A DNA stretch of 23,179 bases from a virus: UHGV virus genome UHGV-0124909. The stretch is one strand, 5' to 3'. Positions 2,159 through 14,964 of this stretch are shown here, in pieces. The translations under genes were made by a program, and so were the position numbers. The stretch's first letter is position 1; every line of letters begins with the position of its first letter. The notes below the pieces were generated by a model. That model had not been told where the DNA came from. It searched no databases and worked only from the letters and a program-made list of their open reading frames with translations.

Positions 2159-2542
2159 CTAGAAGGGAATTGAATCGTCGTATTCAGGATGATTTTGATG
2201 ATTGCTACTTTGTTGCTGTTGGTTGTTTCCTGAAGTTGCAAATCCAATCTTTGCATTCAGTAATTCAAGAGTGATTGATTGACCATTTTGCCCCTGATAA
2301 ACATCAACCCTGATGTTTTCTCCGGTAATTTCTACAATGCCACCTTCAACCAGAACGCTACGGTAGTAATCCGCTTGCGCTCCCGGCTTGGCAAATACAA
2401 CGGCGCTGTAGTTTGTCCATTCTTTCTTTTTTGTCTGGCGATCGTAATACTGAACGCCAGCACGGATGTTGAATCCGATATTTTCCCCGGCCTGAAACTC
2501 TCTTGCGGGCTTGTTTAGTCTTACAGTAATCGAATGTGCCAT
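2159..2542 (-). CDS. SSB-like single-stranded DNA-binding protein (127 aa)
   Basis: Start MAHSITV overlaps the erf stop (TAATG). OB-fold-like body and C-terminal acidic tip ...EYDDSIPF resembling the SSB tail DDDIPF. Confidence 0.6.
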   Translation of the reverse strand: MAHSITVRLNKPAREFQAGENIGFNIRAGVQYYDRQTKKKEWTNYSAVVFAKPGAQADYYRSVLVEGGIVEITGENIRVDVYQGQNGQSITLELLNAKIGFATSGNNQQQQSSNHQNHPEYDDSIPF

Positions 2543-3147
2543 TAAGCAGCCGCCCCTTCTAATTCGTCTCGTCTGATGTTGTAAACGTCCTGCGCTTTTT
2601 GCTGCTCCGGTGTGCCTTCGAGCATCTTCCACGCTTTGGCGAACGCCTGTTTAAGCTCTTCCACGGTGTTTTTCTGCAATGCTGCGTCAGTGAATGCTTT
2701 TAGAACCTGTTCAGGTGTAGGTGATGGTTTTGATTGCTTTGCTGCTGCGTTCTGCTGATGTTTATGCTCGTCTGTATCTGCATCTTTCGCATCATCAATG
2801 CCGAACAAACCATTGAGGCAATACTTGCGTGCATAAGAGCTTGTAGCTCCCGTAACTTGTGCAGAATCCATTCCTTTCTTGCTTTCTTCCTCTCGTGCAA
2901 GAGCGGTTGCCGTATGGCTGTTTTCGCCATCGGTAATAGTTGCCGTGGCTTTCACGTAATACCGATCACCAATCAACACAACTTCATCGCTGATTGATAA
3001 AAACAGACCATTCAGTAACGGCTTAACGCCTTCAAGAATATCTTCGCAGCTTCTGTATTTATATTTACCGAATGAGTTGTACTGATTCTTTGGCGCGTTC
3101 AGATTCTCCTGAATGGCTGCCAGCCTTGCATAAAATTCTTTGCTCAT
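2542..3147 (-). CDS. erf: Erf-family single-strand annealing recombinase (201 aa)
   Basis: MSKEFYARLAAIQENLNAPKNQYNSFGKYKYRSCEDILEG... closely matches remembered P22 Erf; position in the PL-operon recombination module. Confidence 0.75.
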   Translation of the reverse strand: MSKEFYARLAAIQENLNAPKNQYNSFGKYKYRSCEDILEGVKPLLNGLFLSISDEVVLIGDRYYVKATATITDGENSHTATALAREEESKKGMDSAQVTGATSSYARKYCLNGLFGIDDAKDADTDEHKHQQNAAAKQSKPSPTPEQVLKAFTDAALQKNTVEELKQAFAKAWKMLEGTPEQQKAQDVYNIRRDELEGAAA

Positions 3148-3248
3148 ATGTTTGTTCTCAGAATGGACATGGCCAAAGGAAATAACGCTGATTTAATACT
3201 TCGACTCGGGACAAATTAAGGCATACCCGCATTCCTTCGCGGTCGCCA

Positions 3249-3407
3249 TTATGGCGATACCAGAGAGCTTTCTGCGTGTACATGCGTCTCTGTAACTTGC
3301 TCTCCTTTACTGTGGTTGCAAGTGACATGAATATCTCCTTCGTTACCGATTAATTCTTTCATCTGACGAATGAATTCTTCGTCTGACCAGTTATCTGTAA
3401 AACTCAT
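3249..3407 (-). CDS. Hypothetical small protein at the kil position (52 aa)
   Basis: Start MSFTDNWSDEEF is coupled to the cIII-like stop by an ATGA overlap. No similarity to lambda Kil recognised. Confidence 0.35.
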   Translation of the reverse strand: MSFTDNWSDEEFIRQMKELIGNEGDIHVTCNHSKGEQVTETHVHAESSLVSP

Positions 3408-3574
3408 GGACGGCCTTGTTGTTTCAAAATATCCCAAAGCTTTTCGAGCAAACTTTTCATTCTTGGTTGTTTAAAGTCTGCTCCGGTTAAAATGTTTTTT
3501 CGTGAATGCTGTACCGATAAAATCGGGTTGAAAGGGCGAACCGATGCCGCCCCTGCAATAGCGAACTGTTGCAT
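3404..3574 (-). CDS. cIII: cIII-like regulator (FtsH protease inhibitor), 56 aa
   Basis: MQQFAIAGAAS...LLEKLWDILKQQGRP resembles lambda CIII (MQYAIAGW...); AGGAG RBS 7 nt upstream of the ATG at 3574. Longer listed ORF trimmed. Confidence 0.6.
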   Translation of the reverse strand: MQQFAIAGAASVRPFNPILSVQHSRKNILTGADFKQPRMKSLLEKLWDILKQQGRP

Positions 3575-3640
3575 AGGATGCTCCTTCTGTTTGATTGCAT
3601 AACGAAAACGCCTCGAGTGAAGCGTTATTGGTATGCATAT

Positions 3641-3665
3641 AAAAAGGCCCCCCACATCGGAGGGC
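3641..3665 (-). terminator. Putative intrinsic terminator upstream of cIII (tL-like)
   Basis: Minus strand GCCCTCC-GATGT-GGGGGGC (7 bp, one G.U) followed by CTTTTT. Confidence 0.45.
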
Positions 3666-3760
3666 AAAGAAGATTTCCAATAATCAGAACAAGTCGGCTC
3701 CTGTTTAGTTACGAGCGACATTGCTCCGTGTATTCACTCGTTGGAATGAATACACAGTGC

Positions 3761-3964
3761 TTATTCGCGAGCTTTGAGCATTGCGTCTGCAAACTTATAT
3801 GCAGCGCTTGCTGCATAATTAACAACTCCATCAGAATCATTATCGATAATCGATGGATTGCTAATCATTGCTTGCATAGCCTTTGCCGCGAAGTAATCGC
3901 GTAATGTCGCATCACTTGCCATTTCTGGGCGTTTGATATCTGCTTCATAAAACTCGCACATCAT
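3761..3964 (-). CDS. Hypothetical protein (67 aa)
   Basis: ATGA overlap with the upstream gene; strong RBS GGGAGGTGA. Confidence 0.45.
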   Translation of the reverse strand: MMCEFYEADIKRPEMASDATLRDYFAAKAMQAMISNPSIIDNDSDGVVNYAASAAYKFADAMLKARE

Positions 3965-4257
3965 TCACCTCCCAGAGCCTTGCTGATTGCTGCAAGACCT
4001 TTATTAACAGCTCCATACCATTCTGGATATGTTGTCGTTGTTCTATTTTTGGATTGCTTAAGTAATAACTGAAGTGCTTCGAGAAGGTCAGGTGCTGCCG
4101 CTATTAGATTGGCATCTTCAATACATTGAACTACCTCACAGATTGCAATATACGAACGCCAGCCTGCGCCATTTTCAAGTGAGTCTGCCTGGATTATTTT
4201 AATCTCATCGCCATCCATCATTATTTCCCACTTGCCTTCAGTACCTTTAAATTCCAT
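3961..4257 (-). CDS. Hypothetical protein (98 aa)
   Basis: ORF with a GAGG RBS; intrinsic terminator immediately upstream on the minus strand. Confidence 0.5.
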   Translation of the reverse strand: MEFKGTEGKWEIMMDGDEIKIIQADSLENGAGWRSYIAICEVVQCIEDANLIAAAPDLLEALQLLLKQSKNRTTTTYPEWYGAVNKGLAAISKALGGE

Positions 4258-4278
4258 GTTAGCCTCTGTTGTTTATGC

Positions 4279-4305
4279 CAAAAATAAAGGCCGACTATGC
4301 GGCCT
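4279..4305 (-). terminator. Intrinsic terminator within the PL operon
   Basis: Minus strand AGGCCG-CATAGT-CGGCCT followed by TTATTTTTGG; the hairpin overlaps the stop of ORF 4304..4774. Confidence 0.65.
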
Positions 4306-4774
4306 AGTAGAATACCCAATTTTCTGTTTCTTGGTTGTGTCCAAAGTTATATTCAATATCTGGTGTTGATGTATCAATATTCTTCATCCCATCAACAAGA
4401 GTTGATACAACAGCCAAATCTTGTTTGATTCTCATTAAATGGTATTTCTTCCGGCGCAATAAACTTTCAATGGCAAGTTTCTTCGTTGGGAATGCAAAAG
4501 ATCTTTCTGCATTTTTTGCTACTTTCTTAATTGCATATCTATTTCTCCTTTGTTTCCATTCCTGTAACCACTGATTTGGTGCTGGTTTAAAATTAACAAT
4601 CCAATGCGCAGGAACCAACCATGCATAATGCTCTGTCTGATGAAAAGCTATATATTGAAGTGCGAATATTTTTATCCCATCTTCTTCAACTGTCGCCTGG
4701 AATCTCCAGAAAACAGGCATTCCATCATGTTCAGTTTCTGATTCAGGAAAAGGTACGCTCCATGATTTTGTCAT
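4304..4774 (-). CDS. Hypothetical accessory protein (156 aa), AT-rich
   Basis: RBS GAGGTGAgat-ATG; visibly lower GC than flanking phage genes; terminator hairpin overlaps its stop. No recognisable motif. Confidence 0.55.
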   Translation of the reverse strand: MTKSWSVPFPESETEHDGMPVFWRFQATVEEDGIKIFALQYIAFHQTEHYAWLVPAHWIVNFKPAPNQWLQEWKQRRNRYAIKKVAKNAERSFAFPTKKLAIESLLRRKKYHLMRIKQDLAVVSTLVDGMKNIDTSTPDIEYNFGHNQETENWVFY

Positions 4775-4828
4775 ATCTCACCTCAAATAAGTGGTTTGCT
4801 GCGAAAGTAAATACGCTTAAGTTACCTG

Positions 4829-4966
4829 TTATTTATCCCACCAAGTTCCGTATCTATCTATCCAGTTACACCAATCATCGACACTCCATTTTGTCGTGTC
4901 GCATTTTGGCAACTGGCATGAATATCTACCTTCTTTGTAAAGTCGACGTTTGACTTTCTTGAGCAT
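4829..4966 (-). CDS. Small Cys/Trp-rich hypothetical protein (45 aa)
   Basis: Hand-translated: MLKKVKRRLYKEGRYSCQLPKCDTTKWSVDDWCNWIDRYGTWWDK. Has the same RBS GAGGTGAgcc-ATG as the neighbouring gene. Not in the ORF track because it is under 60 aa. Confidence 0.3.
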   Translation of the reverse strand: MLKKVKRRLYKEGRYSCQLPKCDTTKWSVDDWCNWIDRYGTWWDK

Positions 4967-4974
4967 GGCTCACC

Positions 4975-5076
4975 TCAATCGTAATAAGCTGGAATTGATT
5001 TTCCGCGTTGCTTCTGGCGACCAACACAAGTCACACCCATTTCACTGCGTGGCTTGCTGTAATAAATTCGGTTAGT
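4975..5076 (-). pseudogene. Relic 3' end of an N-antiterminator gene (N C-terminal fragment)
   Basis: Minus-strand frame reads TNRIYYSKPRSEMGVTCVGRQKQRGKSIPAYYD*, resembling the remembered lambda N C-terminus (...WYSKPGERGITCSGRQKIKGKSIPLI) and the C-terminus of the intact N here. No N-terminal part is present. Confidence 0.5.
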
Positions 5077-5085
5077 TCAGACAAT

Positions 5086-5105
5086 AAAAAACCCACCGAA
5101 GTGGG
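5086..5105 (-). terminator. Intrinsic terminator within the PL operon (tL1-like)
   Basis: Minus strand CCCAC-TTCG-GTGGG followed by TTTTTT, abutting the stop of ORF 5106..5444. Confidence 0.7.
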
Positions 5106-5444
5106 CTATGACCATTTTTTATTTGGATTTCGTTGGTGAGCGTGATTAACAACTCTGTGCATTACATCCTCATATTTTTCATCTTCAATTTTTTCGACAT
5201 CGCGAGGAAATGGTGTTGCTAATGCTTTGTCAACTTTATCCATTGGGTCTTCATTAATCTTATATTCAGGACCGTCATCTATAGCATTAAATCCAGGTGT
5301 TACACCGTTTTTTAATGCATATGCTATCCTCTTTTCCCATCTCGCTATTCTCCTCCTGTCTCGAGATGTAAGACCTCTATCAGATACTTTTCTGTTTTGT
5401 CCGCGGTCAGGATTAACATAAATAGTCTTTTTCACCATAAGCAT
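5106..5444 (-). CDS. Hypothetical protein (about 112 aa), AT-rich
   Basis: ORF directly downstream of N (2-nt gap), followed by an intrinsic terminator. Listed start is TTG; first ATG is at 5444. Confidence 0.5.
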   Translation of the reverse strand: MLMVKKTIYVNPDRGQNRKVSDRGLTSRDRRRIARWEKRIAYALKNGVTPGFNAIDDGPEYKINEDPMDKVDKALATPFPRDVEKIEDEKYEDVMHRVVNHAHQRNPNKKWS

Positions 5445-5446
5445 AC

Positions 5447-5752
5447 TCAATAAGCACCGTACGGTAGTTTACTGTACAATTTTATTTTTTGGACTGCATG
5501 TATTTTGTTTCCTAATGGGTTTGAATCTTTGTAATAAATACTTCTATTTTTTCGAACAACTTCTTCTTTCTTCTTGCAGCAAAGGATTCCTAGTGATGCT
5601 GCTTTGTCTGCTTTGACGCAACCAGAGAGCTTTAGCGCAATTTTTCGCGCCAGTGCTTCATTACTGCGTCGCTCGGCAATAAGTTCTGCTCTGCGAGCTT
5701 TGTAGCGGCTTTTTGCCGTACCTTTGGATTCTTTCCAGACAATGGTTACCAT
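5447..5752 (-). CDS. N: N-family transcription antiterminator (phage-21-type arginine-rich motif)
   Basis: Start MVTIVWKES with AGGAG RBS. N-terminal arginine-rich motif GTAKSRYKARRAELIAERR matches the remembered phage 21 N peptide. First gene of the PL operon, with nutL upstream. Confidence 0.75.
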   Translation of the reverse strand: MVTIVWKESKGTAKSRYKARRAELIAERRSNEALARKIALKLSGCVKADKAASLGILCCKKKEEVVRKNRSIYYKDSNPLGNKIHAVQKIKLYSKLPYGAY

Positions 5753-5862
5753 GATGGTCTCCTTTAAGTGGCTTTGGCGCATGACGCGTCGAGGTGCTTA
5801 TCTTCTCGATCGCTGTCTTGCAGCTGCAATTCGCGCCATCCCCAAAACCACTCAAGTTCTGG

Positions 5863-5902
5863 TCTCAACGGTTAGGTTGAGAGTCCGTCGATGTTAAAGA
5901 GC
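5863..5902 (-). promoter_or_regulatory. nutL (boxA plus boxB)
   Basis: Minus strand boxA GCTCTTTAA (5894-5902) followed by hairpin TCTCAAC-CTAACC-GTTGAGA (5863-5882), between PL and N. Confidence 0.6.
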
Positions 5903-5948
5903 CTGCCAATCTGTTCCGTTTGGCTTCCAGCGTCCTGCTGATGGCTTA

Positions 5949-5977
5949 AATTTAAGACTTCTTAATTTATTGGTCAA
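5949..5977 (-). promoter_or_regulatory. PL promoter with overlapping OL operator
   Basis: Minus strand -35 TTGACC (5972-5977) and -10 TAAATT (5949-5954) with a 17-bp spacer; operator-like TTAAG-N4-CTTAA at 5950-5967. Confidence 0.6.
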
Positions 5978-6044
5978 GTGCATTTTTGAAGAAAACTTAA
6001 TTTTATGGGCGTGAATTTAGTTTGTCTTTGATTTTTAACGGGAA

Positions 6045-6066
6045 ATAAAAAAGGGGCGAAAGCCCC
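6045..6066 (-). terminator. Intrinsic terminator immediately after the repressor gene
   Basis: Minus strand GGGGC-TTTC-GCCCC followed by TTTTTTAT, directly after the cI/c2 stop codon. Confidence 0.8.
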
Positions 6067-6717
6067 TTAAGGAAGGTTTGCTAGCTTGGCATCAACGACA
6101 ACGCCAATGATTTTACAGTTCCCATTGATTTCAATCATTGGGTATTGTGGATTGAGTGGTTTCAGGAATTTTCTACCGGCATCAATAACTAACTTTTTGA
6201 ATGTCGCCTCGTTTTCCCCTTCAAGTTTGGCGACTACCAGCTTTCCATTACGTGGTTCGACTTCTGGGTCGACGAGAATAATCATCCCCTCAGGAATACT
6301 CAGTCCTGCCGGGGCAGTCATTGAATCGCCTTTAACGTCGAGCCAAAAAGAGTCTTCAGAACAATCTACCGTTGTGTCGTACCAGTTATCTATTGCACGC
6401 CTATGATATGGCTCTACAGCTTCCATCCAACATCCTGCGCTTACCCAACTAATTAGAGGATACGAACCTCTTGGATCATGCCTGCTGTGATAGGCAATGT
6501 TTGAAAGACTATCCTCTCCTTTCAATAGGTAATCAGGGGAGCACTGCAAAGCCTTGGCTAAGGCCAATAGGTTTTCGCCATTGGGCTCAGTTTCAGATCG
6601 CTCCCATTGGGAAATAGCAACATTAGACACGCCAACCATCTTGCCAAGGGCAGCCTGCCTAATCTTGAGTTCTTTTCTGCGAGCGCGAATACGCTCACCC
6701 ATCAGTTGTGTATTCAT
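6067..6717 (-). CDS. c2: Prophage repressor, P22 C2 / lambda cI family (HTH plus LexA-like S24 autopeptidase domain)
   Basis: MNTQLMGERIRARRKELKIRQAALGKMVGVSNVAISQWER... (HTH), Ala-Gly cleavage region and C-terminal ...GDSMTAPAG...KLVVAKLEGENEATFKKL. Near-identical to my recollection of P22 C2. Confidence 0.9.
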   Translation of the reverse strand: MNTQLMGERIRARRKELKIRQAALGKMVGVSNVAISQWERSETEPNGENLLALAKALQCSPDYLLKGEDSLSNIAYHSRHDPRGSYPLISWVSAGCWMEAVEPYHRRAIDNWYDTTVDCSEDSFWLDVKGDSMTAPAGLSIPEGMIILVDPEVEPRNGKLVVAKLEGENEATFKKLVIDAGRKFLKPLNPQYPMIEINGNCKIIGVVVDAKLANLP

Positions 6718-6790
6718 AGTTAAGACATCTTAAATAAACTTGACTTAAGATTCCTTTGGTGGATAATTTAAGTGTTCTTTAATTTCGGAG
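6718..6790 (+). promoter_or_regulatory. OR operator region with PR (and divergent PRM)
   Basis: Three operator-like sites with TTAAG...CTTAA symmetry (6718-6735, about 6744-6761, 6766-6783); PR -35 TTGACT (6740-6745) and -10 GATAAT (6762-6767). Confidence 0.7.
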
Positions 6791-6797
6791 CGAGTCT

Positions 6798-6983
6798 ATG
6801 TACAAAAAAGATGTTATTGACCACTTCGGAACCCAGCGTGCTGTTGCTAAAGCACTAGGCATTAGCGATGCAGCAGTCTCTCAGTGGAAAGAAGTTATCC
6901 CAGAGAAAGACGCCTATCGATTGGAAATCGTTACAGCTGGCGCCCTGAAGTATCAAGAAAGTGCTTACCGCCAAGCGGCATAA
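6798..6983 (+). CDS. cro: Cro repressor (P22-type, 61 aa)
   Basis: MYKKDVIDHFGTQRAVAKALGISDAAVSQWKE... HTH protein divergent from the repressor across the OR operators; GGAG RBS. Confidence 0.85.
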   Translation: MYKKDVIDHFGTQRAVAKALGISDAAVSQWKEVIPEKDAYRLEIVTAGALKYQESAYRQAA

Positions 6984-6989
6984 GCAAAT

Positions 6990-7030
6990 TGCTCTTTAAC
7001 AGTTCTGGCCTTTCACCTCTAACCGGGTGA
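6990..7030 (+). promoter_or_regulatory. nutR (boxA plus boxB)
   Basis: boxA TGCTCTTTAA (6990-6999) and boxB hairpin TCACC-TCTAACCG-GGTGA (7013-7030), between cro and cII; resembles phage-21-type nut sites. Confidence 0.65.
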
Positions 7031-7098
7031 GCAAACATCAGCGGCAAATCCATTGGGTGTGCCGCTATAACTCAATATCAATATAGGAAAATTAACAA

Positions 7099-7395
7099 AT
7101 GGCACAAGCAAGCTACAGCAAGCCAACACAGCGAGAAATTGATCGCGCTGAAACTGATTTACTCATCAACCTGTCAACGCTTACCCAGCGCGGTCTGGCA
7201 AAGATGATTGGCTGTCATGAATCGAAGATAAGCAGAACGGACTGGAGATTTATTGCTTCGGTCTTGTGTGCTTTCGGAATGGCATCAGACATCAGTCCGA
7301 TTAGCAGGGCTTTTAAGTATGCGCTTGATGAAATCACAAAGAAAAAATCCCCGGCCGCCACCGAGGATTTTAAGCAAATTGATATGCAATTCTGA
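7099..7395 (+). CDS. c1: cII/C1-like transcriptional activator (98 aa)
   Basis: HTH region plus C-terminus KKKSPAATEDFKQIDMQF resembling lambda CII C-terminus KKRPAATERSEQIQMEF; position downstream of cro and nutR. Confidence 0.7.
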   Translation: MAQASYSKPTQREIDRAETDLLINLSTLTQRGLAKMIGCHESKISRTDWRFIASVLCAFGMASDISPISRAFKYALDEITKKKSPAATEDFKQIDMQF

Positions 7396-14504: not shown

Positions 14505-14964
14505 TCAACGTAAGGCGTTCCTCGATATGCTGGCATGGTCAGAGGGAACTGATAACGGACGGCAGAAAACCAGAAATCATGGTTATGACGTCATTGTAGG
14601 AGGAGAGCTATTCACTGATTACTCCGATCACCCTCGCAAACTTGTCACGCTAAACCCCAAACTCAAATCAACAGCCGCCGGACGCTATCAGCTTCTTTCC
14701 CGTTGGTGGGATGCTTACCGTAAACAGCTTGGACTGAAAGATTTCTCTCCGAAAAGTCAGGACGCTGTAGCTCTGCAGCAGATTAAAGAGCGTGGTGCTT
14801 TACCGATGATTGACCGCGGCAGTATTCGTCAGGCAATCGACCGTTGCAGCAATATCTGGGCGTCGTTACCTGGTGCAGGTTACGGTCAGTATGAACATAA
14901 AATCGGTGACCTGATTGCCCGATTTAAAAAAGCTGGTGGGGTAGTAAATGAAGCTGAGATATAA
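14488..14964 (+). CDS. R: Endolysin, lambda R-type lytic transglycosylase (158 aa)
   Basis: [51 protein letters not shown]... catalytic Glu in the AWSEGT motif; overlaps the holin end. Confidence 0.9.

What the first reader, a model, noticed from the sequence alone, without database searches (positions are those of the whole stretch)
4304..5444. AT-rich accessory genes between N and cIII, bracketed by N-antiterminated terminators
ORFs 4304..4774, 4829..4966 (Cys/Trp-rich, 45 aa) and 5106..5444 are noticeably AT-richer than their neighbours, have no recognisable motifs, and are separated by intrinsic terminators at 5086-5105 and 4279-4305. In lambda this stretch carries ral and sieB, and in P22 ral, 17 and kil. 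It is a known hotspot for superinfection-exclusion, anti-restriction and host-takeover genes, so these are candidates for such functions.
Basis: partly seen in the sequence, partly recalled or inferred. Interest (0 to 1): 0.5.

Follow-up and report, generated by a model that had tools for sequence, protein, structure and literature searches.

The report
Known Nun exclusion gene plus two unknowns
The stretch holds the well-studied Nun gene, by which a resident prophage blocks infection by phage lambda, followed by two small, widespread phage genes of unknown function; it is real but largely already known.

Summary
Three minus-strand ORFs sit at the stated coordinates in the most AT-rich kilobase of the window (38.3% vs 47.8% GC). 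Intrinsic-terminator hairpins lie at 5107-5090 and 4305-4288.

"No recognisable motifs" is wrong. ORF 5106..5444 is Nun, the phage HK022 transcription-arrest and lambda-exclusion protein. It differs from the solved protein (PDB 6alg) at 1 of 109 residues, and its arginine-rich motif and C-terminal KKWS are intact. It lies just after a phage-21-type N gene with 21-type nutL and nutR. The window has no lambda-type boxB, so Nun should spare its own phage. The same N-nun tandem is annotated in phages mEp235 and mEpX1.

ORF 4829..4966 belongs to Pfam DUF5484 and is related to T-even gp55.4. Its cysteines are not conserved. ORF 4304..4774 is 933W L0079 (phrog_1636). It has a confident predicted fold (pLDDT 93) with no PDB counterpart. 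Neither resembles ral, sieB, P22 gp17 or kil.

No promoter was found for these two genes, they lie behind the nun terminator, and they have relatives in lytic phages. They are therefore more likely N-dependent early lytic genes than prophage-expressed defences.

In passing: nun lies on a 472-bp cassette that splits a phage-21-type N gene.

The parts
5949..5977 (-). PL-like promoter (TTGACC, 17 nt, TAAATT) just left of the cI-like repressor gene (6067..6717) and its terminator (6068-6051)
   Evidence: Consensus scan only, 9 of 12 matches. The position corresponds to pL in the annotated phage 21 record.
5863..5902 (-). nutL of phage-21 type: boxA GCTCTTTAAC (5902-5893) and boxB hairpin TCTCAACCTAACCGTTGAGA (5882-5863)
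   Evidence: The sequence is identical to phage 21 where that record annotates boxA-L and nutL. The hairpin folds. The matching nutR (boxA 6991-7000, boxB TTCACCTCTAACCGGGTGAG about 7012-7031) lies after cro. No lambda-type boxB exists anywhere in the window at up to 2 mismatches.
5447..5752 (-). N antiterminator, 101 aa. The first ~68 codons are phage-21 type (arginine-rich motif TAKSRYKARRAELIAERR). The last ~30 codons are a different tail carried by the nun cassette.
   Evidence: phrog_271 E 7.6e-31. About 99% identical over this stretch to annotated mEp235 N. Aligned to phage 21 N. AAGGAG lies before the ATG at 5752.
5106..5444 (-). nun, the transcription-arrest and lambda-exclusion factor. 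The likely true start is the ATG at 5438 (Met plus the 109-aa mature protein). The N stop codon TGA (5449-5447) lies 8 nt upstream.
   Evidence: 99.1% amino-acid identity to HK022 Nun (X16093, AF069308) and 100% to Lambdavirus PDP110P1. PDB 6alg_N E 2.5e-71, with a single change S11R; PDB 1hji_B (Nun arginine-rich peptide) matches residues 22-47 of the query (E 5.6e-11). phrog_5632 'Nun-like transcription termination factor' E 4.8e-71.
5445..5565 (-). 3' end of N, which is the stretch found upstream of nun in HK022, where the constitutive prophage promoter PNun was mapped. The promoter position here is inferred, not located.
   Evidence: The ~125 bp upstream of nun differ from HK022 at 3 positions. 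The title and citation of King et al. 2000 (J Bacteriol 182:456) appear, but the paper could not be read. The consensus scan finds no sigma-70 site here.
5082..5107 (-). Intrinsic terminator after nun (AGCCCAC-UUCG-GUGGGUU plus U6). It ends a prophage nun transcript and acts as a tL1-like barrier to PL transcripts that lack N.
   Evidence: The stem shows a compensatory change against HK022 (CCCAC/GTGGG vs CCCGC/GCGGG).
4975..5073 (-). Untranslated remnant of the displaced original 3' end of the N gene (NRIYYSKPRSEMGVTCVGRQKQRGKSIPAYYD*). ATTTATTACA occurs at 5067-5058 and again at 5539-5530, so the two copies bracket a 472-bp nun cassette.
   Evidence: The 10-mer occurs exactly twice in the window (0.06 expected by chance).
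4829..4966 (-). ORF2, a 45-aa basic, Trp-rich protein of family DUF5484 / phrog_1871, homologous to T-even gp55.4. Function unknown.
   Evidence: Pfam PF17583 E 2.6e-12. phrog_1871 E 1.4e-22. tblastn finds it in 916 phage records, mostly T4-like, at about 50% identity. It is annotated 55.4 in phage JS10. Conserved core PKxDTTKWSVxDW. GAGGTGA Shine-Dalgarno sequence before the ATG.
4304..4774 (-). ORF1, a 156-aa protein corresponding to 933W L0079 (phrog_1636). It has an acidic beta-hairpin N-domain, a very basic middle part (pI 10.9) with a long helix (98-130), and a conserved C-terminal FGHNxETExW motif. Function unknown.
4279..4305 (-). Intrinsic terminator after ORF1 (AGGCCG-CAUAGU-CGGCCU, U-rich tail). 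It is a conserved boundary of the cargo slot.
   Evidence: The 41 bp at 4265-4305 are 100% identical to mEp235, although the gene upstream of it there is different.

Best explanation
This is the promoter-proximal accessory segment of the leftward early (PL) operon of a temperate lambdoid phage that has a phage-21-type N/nut antitermination system. It holds one known gene and two unknown ones.

(1) ORF3 is nun. In a lysogen it is most likely transcribed from the constitutive PNun promoter, which would lie inside the 3' end of N, and the transcript stops at the hairpin 5107-5090. Nun binds the lambda-type boxB hairpin of nascent nut RNA from a superinfecting lambda-like phage through its arginine-rich motif. 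Its C-terminal segment (H93...K106 K107 W108) wedges into RNA polymerase and blocks translocation, so the invader's early transcription aborts. The resident phage escapes because its own nutL and nutR carry phage-21 boxB hairpins and no lambda-type boxB is present. Shown here: the gene's identity, intact functional residues, the terminator, the 21-type nut sites and the absence of a lambda boxB. Inferred: the promoter, expression in the lysogen and the exclusion phenotype.

(2) ORF2 (DUF5484, related to T-even gp55.4) and ORF1 (933W L0079 family) are real, conserved, soluble basic proteins. They have good ribosome-binding sites but no detectable promoter, and they sit between two terminators. 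They are therefore most likely made only when N-modified polymerase from PL reads through the nun terminator, that is, early in lytic growth or after induction. My best guess is that each acts independently as a small early host-interaction (takeover or anti-defence) factor that binds a host macromolecule. ORF1 may bind nucleic acid or a nucleic-acid enzyme through its basic helical middle part. This function is inferred, not shown.

(3) The slot between the two terminators is exchangeable cargo, and different phages carry different genes there.
For: Nun identity: (one substitution against PDB 6alg; the 1hji peptide, Nun's arginine-rich motif, matches residues 22-47 of the query, E 5.6e-11). 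Functional residues and mechanism: PMC5386594 and PMC4496710. 21-type nut sites. No lambda boxB. The upstream 125 bp are shared with HK022. Terminators: with a compensatory stem change. The same N-nun tandem is annotated in the viable phages mEp235 and mEpX1. ORF1 and ORF2 are real genes: conserved full-length homologues at 55-99% identity, Pfam/PHROG hits, and T-even homologues. No promoter-like site on the minus strand between 4775 and 5105. No transmembrane segments, and basic pI values of 9.1 and 9.4. ORF1 and ORF2 occur separately: ORF1 without ORF2 in 933W and PA28, ORF2 without ORF1 in phi458. The slot holds different cargo in mEp235, E. coli YZ3-11 and HK022. T-even gp55.4 is reported among early-to-middle transcripts in bioRxiv 10.64898/2026.03.01.708804.
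Against: PNun could not be located: the consensus scan finds no sigma-70 site upstream of nun and the mapping paper was not readable. No expression or phenotype data exist for this phage. For ORF1 and ORF2 there is no functional evidence at all: no Pfam function, no PADLOC hit, no PDB fold match. A weak or non-consensus promoter for ORF2 and ORF1 cannot be excluded by a simple hexamer scan. The efficiency of both terminators and their read-through by N are assumed from lambda.
Confidence: 0.85

Rival explanations
1. ORF1 and/or ORF2 are prophage-expressed defence genes (superinfection exclusion or anti-restriction, like sieB, ral or P22 gp17).
For: They occupy the position between N and cIII where lambda has ral and sieB and where PA28 has a gp17-like exclusion gene. 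They are AT-rich, as horizontally moving cargo often is. The slot is variable. A neighbouring gene (nun) is an exclusion gene.
Against: No similarity to Ral, SieB, gp17 or any PADLOC model. No own promoter-like site, and a terminator separates them from the nun transcript. ORF2 homologues are overwhelmingly in strictly lytic T-even phages. Structural relatives of ORF1 occur in phages of several host genera, at least some of which I recall to be lytic. Neither has a membrane segment, unlike SieB-type proteins.
Confidence: 0.15
2. The nun copy here is silent or non-functional in the lysogen, because in this phage it lies behind a complete N gene rather than behind putL as in HK022. It would then be made only from PL during lytic growth, where it might have a different role such as a general slowdown of host transcription.
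For: No consensus promoter is found upstream. The N stop lies only 8 nt before the nun ATG, so expression could be coupled to N from PL. Nun binds non-specific elongation complexes with a Kd of about 300 nM, and a cited paper reports that overexpression is toxic.
Against: The 125 bp upstream of nun, which in HK022 carry the mapped PNun, differ at 3 positions. The ORF is intact, with one conservative-context change. The gene is kept at >=90% nucleotide identity in all 221 of 5426 complete E. coli genomes that carry it (>=95% in 200). nun mutations do not affect HK022 lytic growth (PMC4496710).
Confidence: 0.07
3. ORF1 and ORF2 are not genes but chance ORFs in AT-rich spacer DNA.
For: They are short, AT-rich and annotated only as 'hypothetical'.
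Against: ORF1 is conserved at full length in many Enterobacterales prophages down to 55% identity without frameshifts, with 41 invariant residues. It gives a pLDDT-93 model. ORF2 passes the Pfam gathering threshold and is conserved in more than 900 phage genomes. Both have GAGGTGA ribosome-binding sites. The antisense ORFs have no family hits.
Confidence: 0.02

Closest known systems
Phage HK022 Nun (UniProt/PDB 6alg chain N; NMR complex 1hji with lambda boxB)
   Same: 108 of 109 mature residues are identical. The arginine-rich motif and the C-terminal H93/R94/N97/H98/H100/R102/K106/K107/W108 are the same. It has the same position left of cI in the PL operon, the same downstream terminator and the same ~125 bp upstream.
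   Different: HK022 has no N gene and uses put RNA. Here nun follows a complete phage-21-type N gene with 21-type nut sites. One substitution (S11R) lies outside the known functional segments.
N-nun tandem of phages mEp235, mEpX1, Kapi1, PDP110P1, PA28 and Stx1a phages
   Same: The cI-PL-nutL-N-nun-terminator module is the same (99.2% identity to mEp235 over 5012-6100). Nun and N are both annotated in those records.
   Different: The cargo after the nun terminator differs: a 207-aa hypothetical in mEp235, ORF1 alone in PA28, and ORF2 plus ORF1 here. No record in the phage or complete E. coli collections covers 80% or more of 3700-6100 as one piece.
933W L0079 / phrog_1636 family
   Same: 99.4% nucleotide identity. 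It is the first gene after N in 933W and many Stx phages, and it is followed by a related junction sequence.
   Different: Nothing is known about its function. In Pectobacterium and Brenneria prophages the homologue sits next to xis-int instead.
T-even phage gp55.4 / Pfam DUF5484
   Same: About 50% identity over 40 residues, with the conserved core PKxDTTKWSVxDW and a similar length (43-45 aa).
   Different: The T-even proteins lack the three cysteines and sit in the gene 55-nrd cluster of lytic phages. No function is known for either.
Lambda ral-sieB / P22 ral-17-kil region
   Same: The position between N and cIII, the function as a variable accessory region, and expression dependent on N read-through of tL1-like terminators.
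   Different: There is no sequence or family relationship between any of the three ORFs and Ral, SieB, gp17 or Kil.

Membership tests
HK022 Nun transcription termination/arrest factor | Sequence homology over the full length to HK022 Nun | tested here: met
   99.1% identity by tblastn. phmmer against 6alg_N gives E 2.5e-71 with 108/109 residues identical. phrog_5632 E 4.8e-71.
HK022 Nun transcription termination/arrest factor | N-terminal arginine-rich motif that binds the lambda boxB RNA | tested here: met
   The arginine-rich segment RDRRRIARWEKRIAYAL lies in the part of the query that is identical to 6alg_N. The 26-residue peptide of the Nun-boxB NMR complex (1hji_B) matches query residues 22-47 (E 5.6e-11; no residue alignment was printed for that hit). 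RNA binding itself was not assayed.
HK022 Nun transcription termination/arrest factor | C-terminal RNAP-interacting residues (H93, R94, N97, H98, H100, R102, K106, K107, W108) | tested here: met
   The C-terminus ...HRVVNHAHQRNPNKKWS is identical to the solved protein. The residue list comes from PMC5386594.
HK022 Nun transcription termination/arrest factor | Constitutive expression from the repressed prophage (PNun), ending at a terminator after nun | tested here: inconclusive
   The terminator is present and shows a compensatory change against HK022. The upstream 125 bp are 98% identical to HK022. The promoter was not located by the consensus scan and King et al. 2000 was not readable.
HK022 Nun transcription termination/arrest factor | Excludes lambda but not its own phage (the resident phage lacks lambda-type nut boxB) | tested here: met
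   The sequence part was tested: no lambda boxB at up to 2 mismatches in 23 kb, and nutL and nutR are phage-21 type. The exclusion phenotype cannot be tested with these tools.
Pfam DUF5484 (PF17583) / T-even gp55.4 | Score above the Pfam gathering threshold over the whole domain | tested here: met
   46.7 bits against a cut-off of 27; residues 5-42 match profile positions 3-41 of 43. About 50% identity to the annotated gp55.4 of JS10.
phrog_1636 / 933W L0079 | Full-length match to the family profile | tested here: met
   E 2.7e-112 over residues 1-156 of 156. 99.4% nucleotide identity to L0079.
   No such family appears among the Pfam (E<=0.1), PHROG (E<=0.01) or NCBIfam hits for any of the three ORFs. 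There is no membrane segment as in SieB.
Known anti-phage defence systems (PADLOC-DB v2) | A significant hit to any defence-protein model | tested here: not met
   Only chance-level hits were found (E 0.018 Cas1_II for ORF1). ORF2 and Nun had none. Nun itself is not in that library.
Moron (autonomous promoter-gene-terminator insertion) | The insertion is bounded by recognisable junctions, its composition differs from the neighbours, and it has its own terminator and promoter | tested here: inconclusive
   For the nun cassette, the junction repeat ATTTATTACA occurs twice, 472 bp apart. The N gene is split relative to phage 21. GC is 37% against a 48% background. A terminator is present. The promoter is inferred only from the HK022 literature.

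The most novel reading that the evidence does not exclude
Probability: 0.3. Interest if true: 0.5.

Novelty: already known. Interest (0 to 1): 0.25.

Why it matters
It matters little as a discovery. Nun is a textbook exclusion and transcription-arrest factor, and the N-nun arrangement is already annotated in sequenced phages.

Three points have practical value. (a) NCBI's PGAP annotation calls nun 'hypothetical protein' in the five RefSeq E. coli records listed; 221 of 5426 complete genomes carry the gene. Lambda-exclusion capacity is therefore under-annotated in natural E. coli. (b) The locus shows that Nun coexists with a protein-N antitermination system of different boxB specificity. It also shows that nun arrived on a 472-bp cassette that split a phage-21-type N gene. 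This explains the N-like remnant upstream of nun in HK022 and suggests that the HK022 arrangement is derived. (c) ORF1 is present in about 13% of complete E. coli genomes and in most Stx phages, directly after N. ORF2 is shared with T-even phages. Both are abundant, well-defined targets for functional screens of early phage effectors.

Tried and rejected
Searches that gave nothing for ORF1 and ORF2:
- Pfam, NCBIfam and PADLOC scans gave no function.
- A Pfam scan of 41 distant ORF1 relatives gave only chance hits.
- Profile searches of the ORF1 and ORF2 alignments against PDB sequences gave nothing below E 0.1.
- The Foldseek afdb50 library was unavailable.
- BFVD returned only uncharacterised phage proteins.
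- Literature searches for DUF5484 and for L0079 with 933W found nothing. A search for gp55.4 found only a transcript-list mention.

Other dead ends:
- The search for related loci with the diverse ORF1 alignment failed because no stretch was conserved enough.
- Rfam found no RNA family in 3000-7300.
- The plus-strand (antisense) ORFs in the region have no PHROG hits and were dismissed.

Hypotheses considered and rejected:
- ORF2 as a zinc-binding Cys-rich peptide: its cysteines are not conserved.
- ORF1 and ORF2 as an obligate two-gene system: each occurs without the other.
- The current N tail and the displaced N remnant as recognisably homologous proteins: BLASTP finds no alignment, and only a short DNA motif is shared.
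Full report
CONTEXT. The window is a lambdoid temperate phage. Around the finding, the minus strand carries the leftward early operon in this order:
- a LexA-family cI-like repressor (6067..6717) with its own terminator (6068-6051);
- a PL-like promoter (5977-5949);
- nutL;
- N (5447..5752);
- the three ORFs of the finding;
- two further small ORFs (3961..4257 and 3761..3964);
- cIII (3404..3574, phrog_550);
- kil-region genes and an Erf-family recombinase (2542..3147).
cro (6798..6983) and cII (7099..7395) run rightward.

OBSERVATION. All three ORFs exist as described. The 1141-bp finding is 38.3% GC against 47.8% for the window and lies at the 0.4th percentile of all windows of that length. 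GC3 is 0.29 for ORF1 and 0.26 for ORF3.

Two terminator-like hairpins with U-tails lie on the coding (minus) strand at 5107-5090 and 4305-4288. They fold at -10.3 and -10.1 kcal/mol, and each begins inside the stop codon of the gene before it. Terminator-like sites are enriched in 3000-7200: 12 found against 3.8 +/- 1.9 in shuffles. The description is therefore correct. The statement that the ORFs have no recognisable motifs is not.

ORF3 IS NUN.
- The 112-aa translation of 5106..5444 is 99.1% identical to the nun product of phage HK022 (X16093, AF069308) and 100% identical to that of Lambdavirus PDP110P1.
- Against solved structures it matches chain N of 6alg (Nun in the E. coli RNAP elongation complex) at E 2.5e-71 with one substitution (S11R). 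It also matches the 26-residue peptide of the Nun-boxB NMR complex 1hji at query residues 22-47, E 5.6e-11.
- PHROG 5632, 'Nun-like transcription termination factor', scores E 4.8e-71.
- The residues that the cryo-EM study lists as contacting RNAP and nucleic acid (H93, R94, N97, H98, H100, R102, K106, K107, W108) are all present.
- The solved protein starts at VKK, so the real start is probably the ATG at 5438. The N stop codon TGA (5449-5447) lies 8 nt upstream.

Published mechanism. Nun binds the boxB hairpin of lambda nut RNA through its arginine-rich motif and competes with lambda N. Its C-terminal segment then blocks RNAP translocation, so lambda early transcription aborts. Nun is dispensable for HK022 growth and lysogeny, and its exclusion is specific for lambda (PMC5386594; PMC4496710).

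WHY NUN DOES NOT HARM ITS OWN PHAGE. HK022 lacks N and uses put RNA. This phage instead has an N gene whose first ~68 codons, together with nutL (boxA GCTCTTTAAC, boxB TCTCAACCTAACCGTTGAGA), are essentially identical to phage 21. nutR after cro has the same boxA and the hairpin TTCACCTCTAACCGGGTGAG. No lambda-type boxB (GCCCTGAARAAGGGC, up to 2 mismatches) occurs in the 23 kb. So Nun has no cognate site on the resident genome.

The same N-nun tandem is annotated in the isolated phages mEp235 and mEpX1, and it is present in Kapi1, PA28 and a set of Stx1a phages. The arrangement is viable and already on record. nun occurs in 221 of 5426 complete E. coli genomes; in the five records listed, PGAP calls it 'hypothetical protein'.

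EXPRESSION (INFERRED). King et al. 2000 mapped constitutive prophage promoters for nun (title cited). From my own recollection of the abstract, they lie just upstream of the coding sequence, and the transcripts were expected to stop after nun. I could not read the paper. The ~125 bp upstream of nun in HK022 align with the 3' end of the N gene here, with 3 mismatches. Whatever promoter lies there is therefore almost certainly retained, inside N. The simple hexamer scan does not find it. The hairpin after nun shows a compensatory stem change between this phage and HK022 (CCCAC/GTGGG vs CCCGC/GCGGG), which supports its function.

ORF2. The 45-aa protein passes the Pfam gathering score for DUF5484 (46.7 against 27 bits) and matches phrog_1871. 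tblastn finds it in 916 phage records. A few lambdoids carry it at 95-100% identity. The rest are T4-like phages of Escherichia, Shigella, Klebsiella, Yersinia and others at about 50% identity, where it is gene 55.4 in the 55-nrdH cluster.

The conserved core is KRxLxKxGxY...PKxDTTKWSVxDW...ID..GxW. The only literature trace is a listing of gp55.4 among early-to-middle T2 transcripts.

ORF1. The 156-aa protein matches phrog_1636 (E 2.7e-112) and corresponds to 933W L0079 (99.4% nucleotide identity). L0079 is the first gene after N in 933W and in more than 200 Stx and lambdoid phage records. It occurs in 702 of 5426 complete E. coli genomes.

Close homologues (55-85% identity, 156-163 aa) occur in Pectobacterium, Brenneria, Cronobacter, Rosenbergiella and other Enterobacterales prophages, with 41 invariant residues. 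In two of those prophages the gene lies next to xis-int rather than next to N. A profile search of 1.8 billion representatives found 87 relatives, most of them 130-160 aa. None carries a Pfam domain, and all matching PHROGs are of unknown function.

With the 41-sequence alignment, AlphaFold2 gives a confident model (pLDDT 92.9, pTM 0.79). It has a long three-stranded beta meander (19-55), short helices, a strand (83-86), a 33-residue helix (98-130) and an extended C-terminal segment carrying the conserved FGHNxETExW motif. The N-terminal 60 residues are acidic (pI 5.1) and the middle 70 are very basic (pI 10.9). There is no membrane segment.

HOW ORF1 AND ORF2 ARE PROBABLY USED. The following points bear on this:
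- Both have strong GAGGTGA ribosome-binding sites.
- No promoter-like site lies on the minus strand between the nun terminator and ORF1.
- They are enclosed by two terminators.
- Their relatives occur in lytic phages.
- They occur independently of each other: ORF1 alone in 933W and PA28, ORF2 alone in phi458, both together in CurroJimenez_Bas106.
I therefore favour N-dependent expression early in lytic growth and independent host-directed functions. I put prophage-expressed exclusion at about 0.15. This is inference.

MOSAIC STRUCTURE.
- 5012-6100 matches mEp235 at 99.2%.
- 4241-5061 matches CurroJimenez_Bas106 at 93.8%.
- 4296-4802 matches 933W and PA28 at 98.8%.
- The 41 bp around the second terminator (4265-4305) are 100% identical to mEp235, although a different gene precedes it there.
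Between the two terminators, mEp235 has a 207-aa hypothetical, E. coli YZ3-11 has an 83-aa hypothetical, and HK022 has IS903. No record in the phage or complete E. coli collections covers 80% of 3700-6100 in one piece. The combination is new only in the trivial mosaic sense.

NOTICED: NUN SITS ON A CASSETTE THAT SPLITS N. Downstream of the nun terminator, one reading frame encodes NRIYYSKPRSEMGVTCVGRQKQRGKSIPAYYD* (5073-4975), with no start codon. Its DNA is nearly identical to the corresponding part of phage 21 N and, further on, to the end of CurroJimenez N.

I made a chimera of the first 68 residues of the window's N plus this remnant. It aligns as one piece with phage 21 and DE3 N (88.7% identity, 96% coverage). 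In mEpX1, mEp235 and Kapi1 it aligns as two pieces about 470 bp apart.

The 10-mer ATTTATTACA occurs exactly twice in the window, at 5539-5530 and 5067-5058, at the two junctions (0.06 expected by chance). So a 472-bp unit was inserted into, or recombined into, a 21-type N gene. The unit consists of a new N tail (which would contain PNun), nun and the terminator. HK022 keeps only the last ~125 bp of that N tail, with the stop codon changed to TGG. This suggests that its N-less arrangement is derived. I could not check whether this has been published.

VERDICT. Those two are common conserved hypotheticals. Novelty: already known. Interest: low to moderate.

Noticed in passing
window 4975-5073 and 5058-5067 / 5530-5539 (minus strand): A start-less remnant of the original 3' end of a phage-21-type N gene lies downstream of the nun terminator. 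The 10-mer ATTTATTACA occurs only twice in the window, at both junctions, bracketing a 472-bp cassette (new N tail, nun, terminator) that splits N.
   Followed up: yes
L001 (HK022 AF069308) 2881-3006 vs window 5445-5565: HK022, which has no N gene, carries the last ~125 bp of this N allele directly upstream of nun, with the stop TGA changed to TGG. This is an N pseudogene remnant that presumably houses PNun, and it suggests that the HK022 put/nun arrangement derives from an N-nun ancestor.
   Followed up: partly
window 3961-4257 and 3761-3964 (minus strand): Two further small PL-operon ORFs lie between the second terminator and cIII. The 98-aa protein (phrog_1273, unknown) corresponds to a gene that PGAP names 'XkdD/Y8K6 family phage-associated protein' in E. 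coli YZ3-11. The 67-aa protein matches phrog_2201, 37111 and 20565 (unknown) and weakly a 'transcriptional regulator' PHROG.
   Followed up: no
window 3607-3665 (minus strand): Two more terminator-like hairpins (3665-3647 and 3626-3607) lie upstream of cIII, inside the long 105-aa ORF call 3404..3721. The real cIII probably starts at the internal Met (MQQFAIAG, about 3574).
   Followed up: no
window 6991-7031 (plus strand): nutR of phage-21 type (boxA GCTCTTTAAC, boxB TTCACCTCTAACCGGGTGAG) lies between cro and cII. A third near-boxA (GCTCTTTAAT) lies at 14782-14791 on the minus strand and is probably a chance match.
   Followed up: partly
window 2159-3437 (minus strand): The recombination module is of the P22/HK022 type: an Erf-family annealing protein (2542..3147), a gene that overlaps it downstream (2159..2632, not identified here) and two small 'recombinase'-labelled PHROGs (3158..3328, 3249..3437). 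It is not lambda Red, so the phage is a mosaic of phage-21, HK022/mEp and Stx-phage modules.
   Followed up: no
RefSeq E. coli genomes (e.g. NZ_CP127004.1 4464575-4464913): nun is present in 221 of 5426 complete E. coli genomes, and all five listed hits are annotated 'hypothetical protein'. NCBIfam has no model that hits Nun.
   Followed up: partly
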